Assembly (NCBI GenBank): GCA_964445765.1
Contig: CAYULD010000002.1
Span: 139,505 to 203,504 of the forward strand
From: an uncultured Rickettsiales bacterium
GTDB lineage: Bacteria > Pseudomonadota > Alphaproteobacteria > Rickettsiales > UBA8987
Direction of reading: 5' to 3'
DNA: 64,000 nucleotides
In this document: piece after piece, positions 55,448-58,400 of the stretch
How the letters are laid out: every line of letters starts with the position of its first letter
Numbering within the stretch: the first letter of the stretch is position 1
The notes under the pieces: generated by a model
Told to the model about the DNA's origin: nothing
Database searches by the model: none
Seen by the model: the letters and a program-made list of their open reading frames with translations, nothing else
Position numbers and translations under genes: made by a program

Positions 55448-58400
55448 TTACGCAATTTTTTCCCCAGCTTCCTCTAAAAATTCTAGTGAAATTTTAAGCT
55501 CAGGGTTTGAGTTATCAAAAATAATTTGTTTTGAGCTCGTTACATTGGCAAAATCCTTTTCAATTTCTTTGATAGAATTTATAACCTCTTGTGAGCCTGA
55601 AATTGATGTAATGCTTGGCTTTTTAATAGAAACATTTGCTTCTGCTTTAATTTTTCTAATTTGCTCAAGGCTTTCAATAAATATTTCACCAATTTTTTCT
55701 GCTGCTTGATTTTCAATAAACTCATCAACTTCAACCCAATTGCCCCTAGCGTGAATAGATTGCATTTCTGCTGGCTTTCCTTCTAATTCAGCTGCAAAAA
55801 TATGACTATAAAGCTCTTCAGTAATATGCGGAACAAATGGGGCAAACATTCTTAAAACCGCACTTAAACAAAAATAAATTGTATAAATTGCACTAAGCCT
55901 GCTTGGCTGATTTTCTGCATCTTCGTTATAAGTTCTGGCTTTTACTGCCTCTAAATAATTATCGCAAAAATCTTTCCAAAAGAAATCTTCTAAAGCAAGG
56001 CGAGCGAGCGAATATTCATATAATTCAAATTCTTCTGTAACTTTAATTGTGGTTTTTCTTAGTTTAGAAATTATCCATAAATCAAGTGGTTCAAAAATAA
56101 TTTTTTGCTCTACGGCTTTTTTGGCTGATAAATTTGAGATTTTATTTTTATCAATTAAACCAAAATGGATTGAAGCAAATTTACTAGCATTCCAAAGTTT
56201 ATTCACAAGTTTTTTGCCAATTTTTAGAACATCTTTTGAAAACGCAGTATCCGCCCCCAGCCTAGAAGTTGAAGCCCAGTAACGAATTGCATCAGCGGAG
56301 TTTTCTTTCAAAATTTCTTGTGGTGTAACTATATTTCCCTTAGATTTACTCATCTTTGATTTATCTTCTGCCAAGCACCAGCCAGAAATCATCAGGTTTT
56401 TCCAAGGGATAGTATTTTCGTGAAGATAGGCTTTTACGATGGTATAAAACGCCCAAGTGCGAATAATTTCATGGGCTTGCGGGCGTAAATCCGCAGGGAA
56501 TAATTGCTTATGGCGTGTTGGGTTGAGGGCGTAAACACTATTCCCCTCTACCTCTGGGAGAGAGCTATTTAATAAATTCAAAATATTAGAGATAGTATCA
56601 ACAACGCCTTCTAAATTTTCACTTATATCATTATTCCAAAACCTTAAAACGCTGTAGCCGTTATCATTTAAGAATTTTGTTCTGTTGTTATCATATTCAA
56701 TATTTTCGGAATGTTGTGAGCCATCTAATTCAATAATTAGCTTTCCTTCTATTGTTATGAAATCCACGATGTAATTTCCAATAGAATGTTGGCGGCGGAA
56801 TTTATATCCATCCAGTTTTTTACCCCTTAGTGCCTCCCATAATTTTTCTTCTTGTTTTGTTTGATTATCCCTCAAATTTTTAGCAAGAATAGCTATATTT
56901 TCTTTTCTGCTGGAGTTTTCAGCCTCACCAATTTTCCTTCTATCAATAAACCCTAGTTGAGAGTGCGAAGAACGAACACCCCCCACTATCTCCCCCCGCA
57001 GGCGGGGGGAGAAAAAGAGGGGGGTAACCTTGAGATTTAAGCTCTCTTGAAGTTCTTTAAGATCATTATTATTTGCCCTCACCCCTTCCCTCTCCCGAAG
57101 GGAGAGGGAGCTTTCCCCAAGGTTAATCCCCTTGCTTGAAATTTGTGGTGAGATTGAAGAAGTTGCCCAAGTATCCATAACATCATAATCGGGCGTTACT
57201 TCATCAGCAGAATAACCTTCTGGCAAATCTTTAATTGGATTAACAGGAAGTTGTGAAAGTTTTGGTAAGATTATTTTGCCTTCCTCCCCTGCCCTTTTTG
57301 AATACCACACAGGGAATGGAACGCCGAAATAACGCTGACGAGAAATACACCAATCCCAAGAAAGCGAATCTATCCATTGCTCAATTCTTTTAAGCATAAA
57401 ATCTGGATTCCAATTACATTCCTGAGCTTTCTTTTTAAGGGCTTCCTTATGCTCTAAAACTTTAACGAACCATTGATTAGTTGGGATGATTTCCAGCGGA
57501 GAGCCTGAACGCTCCGCACATTTAACCATATGCTTGATAGGCTTTTTCTCTCTTGCAGTGAAATTATTTTCCTCAAGAATTTTTATTATGGTTTTCTTTG
57601 CGGAAAGATTTGCCTCTTGGTGATCAGCTTTTTTATCTTTTATTAAATTAAAAAATTTAATAGAATTATCTAAATTCAAGCAAGAGTCATCTAATATTGT
57701 GCTACCATAAAATTTAGGAAGATTATATTTAGCTTTTTTGACTTCTGAGTATGATGAAAACCAAATTCCTTTAGGAAAAACTCCAATATATTGTTTTTCA
57801 TTGCTCTCGACTTCTGCATATAAATGTTCATCTTCTGTCTGAATATCAGCCTCTATTTTCCCATATTTATTTAGAATAATTCTCAATTCTAACTTGTGCT
57901 TCTTCCACCATCTGATGTCTTGCTCATCGCCGAAGGTGCAACACATAACTAAACCAGTGCCTTTATCCTTTTGCACGGCATCATCAGCAACAATTGGAAC
58001 TATTGCTTGGAATAAAGGTGTAACAGCTTTTTTGCCTTTATATTTATGTTCATCATCTGGGTGAACCATTAACGCAACGCAAGCTGGAAGCAACTCTGGG
58101 CGGGTTGTCATTATCTCAACCTTTTCTAAATCTTCCCAATTTATTTTTTCACCAGCGAGGTGTTTTTGATGTTGGCTTTCAGTCATCAAACCAAACCAAA
58201 TGTAGTTCTCAAAACTATCTAACTCCTTCTCCTCAATTTCTGCTTGGGCGATGGCGGTTTGGTCTACCGGATCCCAAAACATTGGCTCAAGTGCACGATA
58301 TGCTTGATTTTTATTATACAAATCAATGAAAGACATTTGTGAAAGTTTCATTACCTCATCAGAAATTGTGTGATATTCCTGATTCCAATCAACGCTTAAT

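What the first reader, a model, noticed from the sequence alone, without database searches (positions are those of the whole stretch)
56516..57130. Essential valS carries an in-frame ~0.6-kb insertion: an apparently intact DUF559 endonuclease-fold domain bracketed by GC-rich hairpin repeats
What the sequence shows:
- The 1120-aa ValRS frame is unbroken. Between the conserved motifs DVMDTWATSS (about 57155-57185) and [20 protein letters not shown] (56444-56503) there are roughly 210 residues, where I expect only a short linker.
- The core (about 56590-56890) reads LAKNLRDNQTKQEEKLWEALRGKKLDGYKFRRQHSIGNYIVDFITIEGKLIIELDGSQHSENIEYDNNRTKFLNDNGYSVLRFWNNDI.
- As I recall it, this follows the DUF559/PF04480 signature (ARxLRxxxTxxExxLWxxLR...FRRQxxIGxYIVDF...LIIExDGxxH...R...L...G..VLRFxN), including the acidic residues of the Vsr/restriction-endonuclease fold.
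- The module is flanked by GC-rich hairpins. One has a perfect 9-bp stem, ccctctccc-gaa-gggagaggg (57088-57108), preceded by gccctcacccc. A degenerate copy is cccctctacctctgggagagagc (56543-56565). A second type is tccccccgc-ag-gcgggggga (56991-57010).
- The hairpins are translated in frame as SLSLREREGVRA and TPLFFSPRLRGEIVGG.
- The same repeat families sit in intergenic spacers elsewhere in the window.

Why it matters: in DNA this AT-rich, about 200 foreign codons staying open inside an essential gene implies selection for an in-frame, tolerated insertion. This resembles the Rickettsia palindromic elements found inside protein genes, but here the passenger is a whole nuclease-like domain.

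Inference: the DUF559 domain plus hairpins may be a self-mobilising unit, with the nuclease paired to its cognate hairpins in the way REP elements pair with RAYT transposases.
Basis: partly seen in the sequence, partly recalled or inferred. Interest (0 to 1): 0.88.

Follow-up and report, generated by a model that had tools for sequence, protein, structure and literature searches.

The report
Nuclease-plus-palindrome selfish element inside valS
An essential tRNA-charging enzyme gene carries, in frame, a 579-base selfish DNA element made of a small nuclease gene (DUF559) and GC-rich palindromes, and the same kind of element turns up at several loops of this enzyme, in many other housekeeping proteins, and beside DUF559 genes across bacterial phyla.

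Summary
valS (55448-58810, minus strand) is one unbroken 1120-codon ORF. About 193 extra codons (56534-57112) sit in the loop after DVMDTWATSS; the nearest relative (77% identical) has 23 residues there. The core is a full-length DUF559 domain (PF04480, E=1.4e-40) that keeps 33 of 33 conserved family positions.

It is not an intron, an intein or an ancestral domain. About 20 of the 120 closest ValRS carry DUF559 at three different loops, patchily, with different palindrome types and reading frames. Seven more carry palindromes only.

In 80 DUF559 loci from many phyla, the same palindrome motifs are 35-fold enriched within 150 nt of the ORF. They have the same polarity as here. E. coli ycjD shows the association too.

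DUF559 also sits inside Hsp70, IleRS, RecJ, RecO, HolC, HydF, PrmC and others.

The window copy is composite, and its 3' end has decayed.

Best reading: a selfish nuclease-palindrome element, translated as a tethered extra domain in a permissive loop. That the nuclease cuts its cognate palindromes and spreads by break repair is inference. I found no published description.

The parts
55448..58810 (-). valS, archaeal/Rickettsia-type valine--tRNA ligase; one unbroken 1120-codon ORF that hosts the insert
   Evidence: ORF listing. NCBIfam NF009687 E=1.9e-299, split into two stretches around the insert. Class I motifs and invariant columns are kept. AF2 mean pLDDT 85.
56534..57112 (-). Whole inserted element: 579 nt, 193 codons, aa 567-759, in frame and free of stops
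   Evidence: Codon-level comparison with the empty orthologue L002/P0002 and with P0003, P0004, P0027 and P0037.
57075..57108 (-). 5' type-1 palindromic unit. Perfect 9-bp hairpin (57088-57108) followed, in gene orientation, by the G-box GGGGTGAGGGC (57075-57085). Translated as SLSLREREGVRA.
   Evidence: Exact pattern match with 0 expected by chance. Folds at -10.6 kcal/mol. Nearly identical unit in the same frame in P0004. Same family in intergenic spacers (families D2 and D5).
57026..57074 (-). AT-rich spacer between the type-1 and type-2 palindromes (NNNDLKELQESLNLKV)
   Evidence: Sequence. AF2 gives residues 568-584 pLDDT below 50; the region contains a short helix predicted at 581-590.
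56978..57025 (-). Type-2 nested palindrome ACCCCCC..TCCCCCCGC-CT-GCGGGGGGA..GGGGGGT. Translated as VTPLFFSPRLRGEIVGG.
   Evidence: Exact core at 56991-57010. Folds at -19.4 kcal/mol, z=-5.3, 0 of 200 shuffles as good. The same peptide, VTPIFFSPRLRGELVGG, precedes DUF559 inside an Hsp70 (P0241). The type-2 motif also flanks DUF559 in HolC and P0003.
56894..56977 (-). Element-specific linker between the type-2 palindrome and the nuclease domain (..RKIGEAENSSRKEN..)
   Evidence: Conserved with the linkers of DUF559 inserts in HolC (GKIGEGEYSSRKPE) and Hsp70 (GKIGSSETSTRKEK). Residues 592-624 and 626-633 have pLDDT below 50; about 634-639 are not in the low-confidence list.
56579..56893 (-). DUF559 (Vsr-like PD-(D/E)xK nuclease fold) domain, aa 640-744
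   Evidence: PF04480 E=1.4e-40, profile 4-108 of 109. PDB 3hrl_A E=3.4e-28. 33 of 33 invariant or at least 90%-conserved family positions retained. Predicted to fold (helices and strands 635-749), 10-residue block pLDDT means about 73-93.
56543..56565 (-). 3' type-1 hairpin remnant (CTCTCTCCC-AGA-GGTAGAGGGG), translated SSLPEVEGN. The adjacent C-box is lost.
   Evidence: 2-mismatch match. No longer folds better than shuffles, z=-0.36. Homologous to the intact 3' unit CTTCACCCTAACCCTCTCCCAGAGGTAGAGGGA of P0004.
40827..40965 (+). Intergenic 'empty' inverted pair of type-1 units: [hairpin-GGGTTAGGGTGAGGGG], about 20 nt, [ACCCTCACCC...hairpin]. Same polarity as the flanks of DUF559.
   Evidence: Sequence. 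Lies between ORFs. Folding.
50655..50770 (+). Intergenic inverted pair of related GC-rich units: CCTCCCCTGCTAGCGGGGGAGG + GGAGGGGGTG, then CACCCTCCCC + CCCCTCCCGCAGGCAGGAGGGG
   Evidence: Sequence. Repeat family D2. Folding.
10710..10747 (+). Single intergenic type-1 unit, 87% identical to the valS 5' unit
   Evidence: family D2. Lies between the ORFs at 9298-10635 and 10793-12256.
12310..12350 (+). Single intergenic type-1 unit (ACCCTCACCCCTGCCCTCTC...GAGGGGG)
   Evidence: (family D5).

Best explanation
**What it is.** The segment is a selfish DNA element, not part of the ancestral enzyme. It consists of an intact DUF559 nuclease ORF (Vsr-like restriction-endonuclease fold) with its own GC-rich palindromes. 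It lies within an inverted pair of a second, dispersed palindromic repeat family. It landed in a variable surface loop of ValRS, between the DTWATSS motif and the second half of the catalytic fold.

**How the host tolerates it.** It has no means of removing itself. It persists only because it is in frame and stop-free, and because it folds as a separate domain on disordered tethers. The cell therefore makes a 1120-residue ValRS with a nuclease domain attached.

**The wider class.** The element belongs to a widespread class with a fixed layout: [hairpin + GGGTGAGGG box] - DUF559 - [CCCTCACCC box + hairpin]. Copies without the nuclease, single or as inverted pairs, are far more numerous and are scattered through intergenic DNA and protein loops.

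**Most likely mechanism (inferred).** The nuclease recognises and nicks or cuts its cognate palindromes. Repair of the break from a nuclease-bearing copy carries the ORF into other repeat copies, which is homing with the repeats serving as homology arms. Selection then keeps only insertions that are in frame in permissive loops.

**State of the window copy.** It has perfect 5' palindromes but a decayed 3' end. It is probably an old, now poorly mobile copy whose nuclease domain is still conserved.
For: **Shown here.**
1. Intact DUF559: PF04480 E=1.4e-40, 3hrl E=3e-28, 33 of 33 conserved positions kept.
2. The insert is derived. The sister ValRS P0002 lacks it cleanly, as do about 100 of the 120 closest ValRS.
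3. Insertion is recurrent. DUF559 with palindrome-derived flanks occurs at three ValRS loops (after aa ~214, ~413 and ~566). One protein has two copies. 11 of 120 have DUF559 at this loop and 7 have palindromes only, including a complete empty inverted pair in P0027.
4. The DUF559 copies at this loop do not form one clade in a rough NJ tree, and they carry different palindrome types.
5. The same DNA repeat is read in different frames (SLSLREREGVRA versus PSPSGRGLGEG). Conservation is therefore at the DNA level, and only stop-free frames are seen.
6. The association is general across phyla. Palindrome motifs occur at 9.5 per kb within 150 nt of 80 DUF559 ORFs, against 0.27 per kb further away. 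The polarity is consistent. The association also holds at E. coli ycjD.
7. Other hosts carry internal DUF559: Hsp70, IleRS, RecJ, RecO, HolC, HydF, PrmC, ThiE, an aminotransferase, LplA/B and HsdS. The Hsp70 copy shares the window's type-2 palindrome peptide and linker.
8. Empty inverted pairs of the same units lie in intergenic DNA of this window.
9. AF2 gives a confident ValRS core, a folded DUF559 domain and disordered repeat-derived tethers. The site corresponds to a short loop in ValRS structure 1GAX.
10. The palindromes stay 46-56% GC in a 33% GC genome, while the ORF has host-like GC. That points to constraint on the palindrome DNA.

**Established knowledge.** Vsr-fold nucleases are proven homing endonucleases (PMC3239194, PMC2677866). 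DUF559 is classed with Vsr and I-Bth0305I (PMC3424549).
Against: - No nuclease activity, cleavage site or cognate specificity has been shown for any DUF559 protein.
- No near-identical copies, which would mark recent movement, were found. There is only one DUF559 in the 64-kb window, and the rest of the genome was not available.
- All DUF559 copies compared are 45-60% identical to the window copy, a star-like pattern. History is therefore hard to resolve. An old insertion followed by many precise losses cannot be formally excluded for some clades. P0001 and P0004 share nearly identical flanks in the same frame.
- No target-site duplication was found.
- Going from palindrome to nuclease, the link is weak. 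Only 2 of 120 metagenome loci with the type-2 core have a DUF559 nearby.
- How the palindromes reach new sites such as protein loops is unexplained by homing alone.
- Translation of the insert is inferred from the open frame. It has not been shown by proteomics.
Confidence: 0.6

Rival explanations
1. **REP/RAYT-like arrangement.** DUF559 is the trans-acting enzyme that mobilises or maintains the dispersed palindromes. The gene itself mostly sits still between two of them. The valS copy arose when a repeat pair that happened to carry the gene was inserted.
For: - The layout matches: a nuclease flanked by inverted palindromic units, plus many solo units or pairs elsewhere.
- Solo palindromes greatly outnumber nuclease-bearing ones.
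- Each DUF559 sublineage has its own palindrome type.
Against: - DUF559 is a roughly 110-aa PD-(D/E)xK/Vsr-fold nuclease, not an HUH/Y1 transposase. It has no obvious way to carry out strand transfer.
- The ORF itself is found at many different sites in many hosts, so it clearly moves.
Confidence: 0.25
2. **Ancient insertion with repeated losses.** A palindrome pair, with or without DUF559, entered the loop once in an ancestor of these Rickettsiales-like bacteria. It was then lost precisely many times and occasionally swapped by recombination. The window copy would be a vertically inherited relic rather than the result of a recent or independent insertion.
For: - P0001 and P0004 share almost identical 5' and 3' type-1 units in the same frame at the same position.
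- P0027, from another clade, uses the same frames.
- The window's 3' end is decayed.
Against: - It needs dozens of clean, in-frame deletions, since about 100 of 120 ValRS are empty.
- The sister P0002 shows no scar.
- Copies at this loop carry different palindrome types and frames, and their DUF559 domains are polyphyletic.
- Two other loops and many other proteins are also hit.
Confidence: 0.15
3. **Exapted domain.** The DUF559 domain has been recruited by ValRS and now serves the enzyme or the cell, for example in nucleic-acid binding, regulation or defence. Its retention would then reflect host benefit.
For: - All 33 conserved positions are retained.
- All 21 ValRS-embedded DUF559 copies keep the core motifs despite 40-55% divergence.
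- The ORF composition matches the host.
Against: - Presence is patchy even between sister taxa.
- Three alternative insertion loops are used, and the host proteins are unrelated.
- The domain is attached by disordered repeat-derived tethers with no predicted interface.
Confidence: 0.07
4. **Removal before the mature protein.** The segment is taken out as a self-splicing intron, as an intein, or by ribosomal bypass.
For: It has an intein-like distribution: in frame, at conserved sites of essential genes, and carrying a nuclease. Hairpins lie near the junctions.
Against: - No Rfam intron family matches, even at E up to 1.
- Pfam finds no Hint/intein domain.
- The C-terminal junction is ..NSV|Y, with no His-Asn and no Cys/Ser/Thr at +1.
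- The flanks are read in different frames in different copies yet are always open. That is expected only if they are translated and retained.
Confidence: 0.03
5. **Artefact.** The insert is an assembly chimera, or this valS is a pseudogene.
For: The source appears to be a metagenome-derived genome. GC-rich palindromes can confuse assemblers.
Against: - The identical 1120-aa protein is on a separately built Logan contig.
- About 20 orthologues from independent samples show the same kind of insert.
- The ORF is intact, with every invariant ValRS residue.
Confidence: 0.02

Closest known systems
Rickettsia palindromic elements (RPEs; Ogata et al. 2000, cited from memory)
   Same: Both are palindromic repeats inserted in frame into essential protein genes of Rickettsiales-type bacteria. 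Both are translated, sit in permissive surface regions, and also occur in intergenic DNA. Repeat-only inserts are seen here in ValRS (P0027, P0018 and others) and in PolA.
   Different: RPEs carry no gene, and no enzyme has been tied to them. Here the palindromes are GC-rich, occur across many phyla, and bracket an intact nuclease ORF. Sequence relatedness to the RPE families was not tested.
REP / REPIN elements with their RAYT transposases
   Same: A small nuclease-type gene is flanked by inverted copies of a short palindromic repeat. That repeat is otherwise dispersed as singlets and inverted doublets. Different gene lineages pair with different repeat types.
   Different: RAYTs are HUH/Y1 (IS200/IS605-like) transposases. 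DUF559 is a Vsr-like PD-(D/E)xK fold. REP/RAYT elements are extragenic, whereas these elements are repeatedly found in frame inside proteins.
Vsr-like (EDxHD) homing endonucleases such as I-Bth0305I, and the free-standing endonucleases of 'fractured genes' (PMC3239194, PMC2677866)
   Same: The nuclease superfamily branch is the same: Vsr, DUF559 and 3r3p are grouped together in PMC3424549. Both show patchy occupation of conserved sites in DNA-metabolism and housekeeping genes.
   Different: Those enzymes live in group I introns, in inteins, or between split gene halves, so the host protein is restored or split. Here there is no splicing element and the nuclease is read through as part of the host protein. 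The likely recognition site is the element's own palindromes rather than the host gene.
Inteins carrying homing endonuclease domains
   Same: Both are in-frame, stop-free insertions with a nuclease domain in essential enzymes. Their distribution among orthologues is patchy.
   Different: There is no Hint splicing domain and there are no splice-junction residues. The flanks are conserved as DNA and are read in different frames.
Free-standing DUF559 proteins (E. coli YcjD; N. gonorrhoeae protein of PDB 3HRL)
   Same: The domain is the same, at 50-62% identity. E. coli ycjD is likewise followed by a CCCTCTCCC hairpin and a GGGAGAGGGTTAGGGTGAGGGG unit.
   Different: Those are separate small genes of unknown function. 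The window copy has no start or stop of its own and is embedded in ValRS.

Membership tests
DUF559 / PF04480 (Vsr-like branch of the PD-(D/E)xK nucleases) | Profile match above Pfam's gathering score over the whole domain | tested here: met
   137.9 bits against a cut-off of 20.6, E=1.4e-40, profile 4-108 of 109. PRK09767 E=1.4e-30. PDB 3hrl_A E=3.4e-28.
DUF559 / PF04480 (Vsr-like branch of the PD-(D/E)xK nucleases) | Family-invariant residues retained (E, W, R, D, E-x-D-G-x-x-H, R, R-F-W) | tested here: met
   11 of 11 invariant and 22 of 22 at least 90%-conserved columns of a 118-sequence alignment are present in the window copy.
DUF559 / PF04480 (Vsr-like branch of the PD-(D/E)xK nucleases) | Endonuclease activity | not testable with these tools
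   No biochemical data were found for any DUF559 protein in the literature searched.
Intein | Hint splicing domain; N-terminal Cys/Ser; C-terminal His-Asn followed by Cys/Ser/Thr | tested here: not met
   No Hint or intein family in Pfam. The downstream junction is ..EGNSV|YALNP. The flanks are read in different frames in different copies.
Group I / group II intron | Ribozyme core detectable by covariance model; interruption of the reading frame | tested here: not met
   No intron family in Rfam at E up to 1 across 55000-59500. The frame is continuous.
REP/RAYT (REPIN) system | Gene flanked by inverted copies of a palindromic repeat that is also dispersed in the genome | tested here: met
   Flank polarity was shown in ValRS inserts and in 80 loci. 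Dispersed copies lie at four other places in the window.
REP/RAYT (REPIN) system | The gene encodes an HUH/Y1 IS200/IS605-type transposase | tested here: not met
   The only domain in the insert is PF04480.
Rickettsia palindromic elements | Short palindromic repeat inserted in frame in protein genes and translated | tested here: met
   Repeat-derived peptides occur in frame in ValRS (this window, P0027, P0018, P0025, P0038, P0078, P0097) and in PolA.
Rickettsia palindromic elements | Sequence homology to the RPE-1 to RPE-8 consensus | not tested
   No RPE reference sequences were available in the tools. The GC-rich motifs here do not resemble RPEs as I recall them.
Homing endonuclease gene | Patchy presence at the same site of a conserved gene among close relatives | tested here: met
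   P0001 is inserted and its sister P0002 is empty. P0003 is nested among empty orthologues.
Homing endonuclease gene | The enzyme cleaves the empty allele or target and is copied in by repair | not testable with these tools
   This needs cleavage assays and crosses.

The most novel reading that the evidence does not exclude
DUF559 genes with their GC-rich palindromes form a widespread, previously unrecognised class of bacterial selfish elements. A Vsr-fold nuclease would use dispersed palindromic repeats as both recognition site and homology arms. Unlike introns and inteins, the element would survive inside essential genes without any splicing, simply by being read through as an extra domain. 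If so, it would supply the first candidate enzyme for the long-unexplained spread of palindromic elements into protein-coding genes. It would also assign a function to a large family of unknown function: more than 10,000 cluster representatives at E<=1e-10.
Probability: 0.45. Interest if true: 0.88.

Novelty: new variant of a known kind. Interest (0 to 1): 0.78.

Why it matters
**A third way to live inside an essential gene.** Selfish nuclease genes are known to survive in essential genes by hiding in self-splicing introns or inteins. This case, together with the many parallel cases found here in ValRS, IleRS, Hsp70, RecJ, RecO, HolC, HydF and others, suggests another route. The element inserts in frame into a permissive loop and is tolerated as an extra domain.

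**A testable function for DUF559.** The results tie a very large family of unknown function to a specific, conserved DNA motif family found across phyla and visible even at E. coli ycjD. That gives a concrete hypothesis: a palindrome-specific nuclease.

**A handle on an old question.** How palindromic repeats get into protein-coding genes in Rickettsia-like bacteria has never been explained. These elements offer a candidate enzyme.

**Practical consequences.**
- Such inserts inflate and confuse the annotation of core genes.
- They mark permissive insertion sites in enzymes such as aminoacyl-tRNA synthetases.

Tried and rejected
**Rejected explanations.**
- Intron: Rfam at a permissive threshold found nothing relevant.
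- Intein: no Hint domain and the wrong junction residues.
- Assembly artefact: the same protein is on a second assembly, and there are about 20 orthologous cases.

**Searches that found nothing or were blocked.**
- Further DUF559 copies in the window: none by tblastn.
A genome-wide census and a check for a second valS were therefore impossible.

**Inconclusive analyses.**
- Target-site duplications at the junctions of P0001, P0004, P0027 and P0037: none were consistent.
- All-against-all blastn of 80 DUF559 loci, to find element boundaries from near-identical copies: only ORF-level similarity at about 70% appeared, because the loci come from different species.
- Neighbour-joining trees of a roughly 100-aa domain are only indicative. 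All copies are about 45-60% identical to the window copy.

**Reverse test.** Going from the type-2 palindrome to a nearby nuclease, only 2 of 120 loci had DUF559. The short core is mostly solo, and in GC-rich DNA it may be unrelated.

**Literature.** Six full-text searches found no description of DUF559-palindrome elements or of DUF559 inside aminoacyl-tRNA synthetases. The library lacks most subscription journals, so absence is not proof.

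
Full report
**1.

- valS occupies 55448-58810 on the minus strand as one unbroken 1120-codon ORF.
- NCBIfam identifies it as the archaeal/Rickettsia-type valine--tRNA ligase (NF009687, E=1.9e-299). The match is split into two stretches around the insert.
- Pfam places a full-length DUF559 domain at residues 640-744: PF04480, E=1.4e-40, 137.9 bits against a cut-off of 20.6, profile positions 4-108 of 109.
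  - CCCTCTCCC-GAA-GGGAGAGGG at 57088-57108 is exact, with no chance matches in shuffles.
  - TCCCCCCGC-AG-GCGGGGGGA at 56991-57010 is exact.
  - A two-mismatch copy of the first lies at 56544-56564.
- The window is 33% GC and the palindromic parts are 46-56% GC.

**2. Exact anatomy**

Codon-level comparison with the closest relative fixes the boundaries. That relative is P0002: 854 aa, 77% identical, in a syntenic locus (L002). It reads ..ISSKAITKE|YAIDYDRH.., whereas the window reads ..KGINLGE|SSLSLRE...EGNSV|YALNPTRH... The insert is therefore about 56534-57112, which is 579 nt or 193 codons.

In gene orientation the insert reads as follows.

| Part | Coordinates | Notes |
|---|---|---|
| a. 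Type-1 unit | 57075-57108 | Perfect hairpin plus the box GGGGTGAGGGC |
| b. AT-rich spacer | 57026-57074 | |
| c. Type-2 nested palindrome | 56978-57025 | -19.4 kcal/mol, z=-5.3 |
| d. Linker | 56894-56977 | Contains RKIGEAENSSRKEN |
| e. DUF559 domain | 56579-56893 | |
| f. Type-1 hairpin remnant | 56543-56565 | Folds no better than shuffled sequence, z=-0.36; has lost its C-box |

The element is thus a composite of two palindrome types. Its 5' end is perfect and its 3' end is decayed.

**3. It is neither spliced out nor an artefact**

- Rfam finds no intron family even at E up to 1.
- Pfam finds no intein domain. The downstream junction (..NSV|Y) lacks intein splice residues.
- Across relatives the same DNA repeat is translated in different frames, for example SLSLREREGVRA and PSPSGRGLGEG, and is always open.
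  - That shows conservation at the DNA level.
  - It also shows survival only of stop-free, translated configurations.
- The identical protein is encoded on a separately built Logan contig.
- AlphaFold2 with a 120-sequence alignment (mean pLDDT 85, pTM 0.78) predicts three things:
  - a confident ValRS core;
  - a folded DUF559 domain (secondary structure spanning 635-749);
  - very low confidence in most of the repeat-derived stretch that precedes it (residues 568-584, 592-624 and 626-633, all with pLDDT below 50).
- The site corresponds to the short loop between DTWFSS and YPGD in the solved ValRS structure 1GAX.

**4. It is a derived, recurrent insertion**

Among the 120 closest ValRS, about 20 carry PF04480. 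Alignment shows three separate insertion loops:

| Loop | Position (window numbering) | Proteins with DUF559 |
|---|---|---|
| A | after aa ~214 | P0017, P0018, P0025, P0032, P0036, P0038, P0078, P0102 |
| B | after aa ~413 | P0079, P0093 |
| C (the window's loop) | after aa ~566 | P0001, P0003, P0004, P0032, P0033, P0037, P0044, P0054, P0069, P0077, P0081 |

- P0032 has two copies.
- Seven further proteins have palindrome-derived peptides only at the window's loop.
  - One of these is P0027, which holds a complete empty inverted pair in frame.
  - Its structure is [hairpin + GGGGTGAAGGG], 30 nt, [CCCTCACCC + hairpin].
- In a rough host tree the window protein is sister to the empty P0002, and P0003 is nested among empty orthologues.
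- The DUF559 domains at this loop do not form one clade.
- The inserts at this loop also carry different palindrome types.
- These same loops also hold unrelated lineage-specific insertions in other ValRS. That fits a filter for permissive loops.

One complication remains. P0001 and P0004 share almost identical type-1 flanks in the same frame. However, their DUF559 domains are only 51% identical. The window copy also carries the type-2 palindrome and linker that P0004 lacks. This is best explained by replacement or nesting within an older repeat pair.

**5. The nuclease-palindrome pairing is general**

- The nearest DUF559 proteins are free-standing ORFs of 107-160 aa from many phyla, at 50-62% identity. 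Many run into tails such as PSPxPLxGEG.
- In 80 DUF559 loci from species-representative genomes, the best inverted repeats bracketing the ORF are almost always of the family CCCTCTCCC / GGGAGAGGG / GGGTGAGGG.
  - These genomes include Melainabacteria, Chloroflexota, Patescibacteria, Gammaproteobacteria and Bacteroidota.
- Motif density is 9.5 per kb within 150 nt of the ORF and 0.27 per kb further away, a 35-fold difference.
- The polarity matches valS: hairpin then G-box upstream, C-box then hairpin downstream.
- In E. coli K-12, ycjD ends in such a hairpin. It is followed by a partial duplicate of its own 3' end and a GGGGAGAGGGTTAGGGTGAGGGG unit.
- The window holds single units at 10710-10747 and 12310-12350. 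It also holds empty inverted pairs at 40827-40965 and 50655-50770.
- The reverse test is weaker. Of 120 metagenome loci containing the type-2 core, only two have a DUF559, both within 80 nt. Nuclease-free palindromes are far more common.

**6. Many hosts**

A full scan of 1.84 billion cluster representatives found 10,276 relatives at E<=1e-10. Many of the best hits are long proteins with an internal DUF559:

- Hsp70 (P0241)
- IleRS (P0244, P0246)
- RecJ (P0253)
- HydF (P0257)
- RecO (P0252, P0254)
- PrmC (P0256)
- ThiE (P0258)
- an aminotransferase (P0265)
- LplA/B (P0273)
- HsdS subunits

DNA polymerase III chi (P0143, P0208) also carries one. In most of these the host domains flank the insert on both sides.

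The Hsp70 insert shares the window's type-2 peptide (VTPIFFSPRLRGELVGG) and its linker. The window's inner element therefore belongs to a lineage that has entered at least three different host genes.

PolA next to one ValRS relative carries a repeat-only peptide.

**7. State of the nuclease**

- The window domain keeps all 11 invariant and all 22 at least 90%-conserved positions of a 118-sequence alignment.
- The closest solved structure is the N. gonorrhoeae 'endonuclease-like protein' 3HRL (E=3.4e-28).
- A published survey classes DUF559 with Vsr and the homing endonuclease I-Bth0305I (PMC3424549).
- Vsr-fold enzymes are established homing endonucleases in introns, inteins and split genes (PMC3239194, PMC2677866).

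**8. Interpretation**

What is shown:
- This is a selfish nuclease-palindrome element.
- It is inserted in frame and almost certainly translated.
- It belongs to a widespread class that recurrently lands in permissive loops of conserved proteins.

What is inferred:
- The nuclease recognises its own palindromes.
- It spreads by break repair among repeat copies.
- Selection for open, in-frame, loop-located insertions then acts on the results.

A REP/RAYT-like role as a trans-acting mobiliser of the palindromes is the main rival. An ancient insertion with many precise losses cannot be excluded for part of the tree. Exaptation, splicing and artefact are unlikely.

**9. Novelty**

Six full-text literature searches found no description of DUF559-palindrome elements or of DUF559 embedded in aminoacyl-tRNA synthetases. 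The library is incomplete, so this is not proof of absence.

The components resemble known kinds: Rickettsia palindromic elements, REP/RAYT, Vsr-like homing endonucleases and inteins. Each membership test fails on at least one defining feature. I therefore rate it a new variant of a known kind, with a substantial chance that it marks a distinct, unrecognised class.

Noticed in passing
window 58807-59432 (minus strand): A PIN-domain ORF (127 aa, PF01850) and a small upstream ORF (81 aa) that overlaps it by 4 nt sit directly upstream of valS. They look like a toxin-antitoxin pair. In the syntenic loci of relatives (L002, L083, L084) the permease gene abuts valS without them, so this is probably another inserted module.
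   Followed up: partly
window 737-783, 5083-5130, 24392-24430, 29777-29809, 50538-50576: A second, unrelated dispersed repeat family (core AGATGTTTCGCTTCGCTCAACATGACA) occurs in both orientations. A perfect 25-26-nt palindrome, CTATAGTAAAATGCATTTTACTATAG, occurs at 29755 and 42121. From memory, this kind of repeat often accompanies small GIY-YIG nuclease genes in other bacteria. That was not tested.
   Followed up: no
window 51090-54113 (plus strand): A 1007-aa ORF with no Pfam family on record (one search lists '-'). It lies just downstream of the GC-rich inverted repeat pair at 50655-50770.
   Followed up: no
window ~57692-57838 (valS aa 325-373): A second lineage-specific stretch in the editing-domain region of ValRS has pLDDT below 50. 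It is not repeat-derived. Many relatives have unrelated insertions at this spot (core column 306).
   Followed up: partly
L088 5040-5840 (E. coli K-12 ycjD region, NC_000913.3 ~1351040-1351840): ycjD (DUF559) ends inside a CCCTCTCCC...GAGGGGG hairpin. About 40 nt downstream lies a partial duplicate of its own last ~40 nt. Further downstream is the unit CCCCTCGCCCCTCTGGGGAGAGGGTTAGGGTGAGGGG. So the nuclease-palindrome association is visible in the best-studied genome.
   Followed up: partly
L087 ~910-1000 (polA of the genome encoding P0081): DNA polymerase I carries an in-frame peptide, SLPRRGRVGEG...SSLRGEE, derived from the same kind of GC-rich repeats. It sits in the linker between its exonuclease domains.
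   Followed up: partly
P0078 (ValRS relative), insertion loop A: A tandem array of five or six PSPSGRGLGEGTTEK units precedes the DUF559 domain. The palindromic units can therefore amplify in tandem inside a coding region.
   Followed up: no
P0241 (Hsp70 with embedded DUF559): The insert is the closest relative of the window's inner element. Its conserved E-x-D-G motif reads E-L-E-G, an Asp-to-Glu change, so that copy may be catalytically altered.
   Followed up: no
L192 (metagenome contig), open frame 9052-10830 on the reverse strand: A DUF559 ORF with palindrome-derived flanks is open in frame with the downstream murA gene, giving an apparent N-terminal extension of MurA.
   Followed up: no
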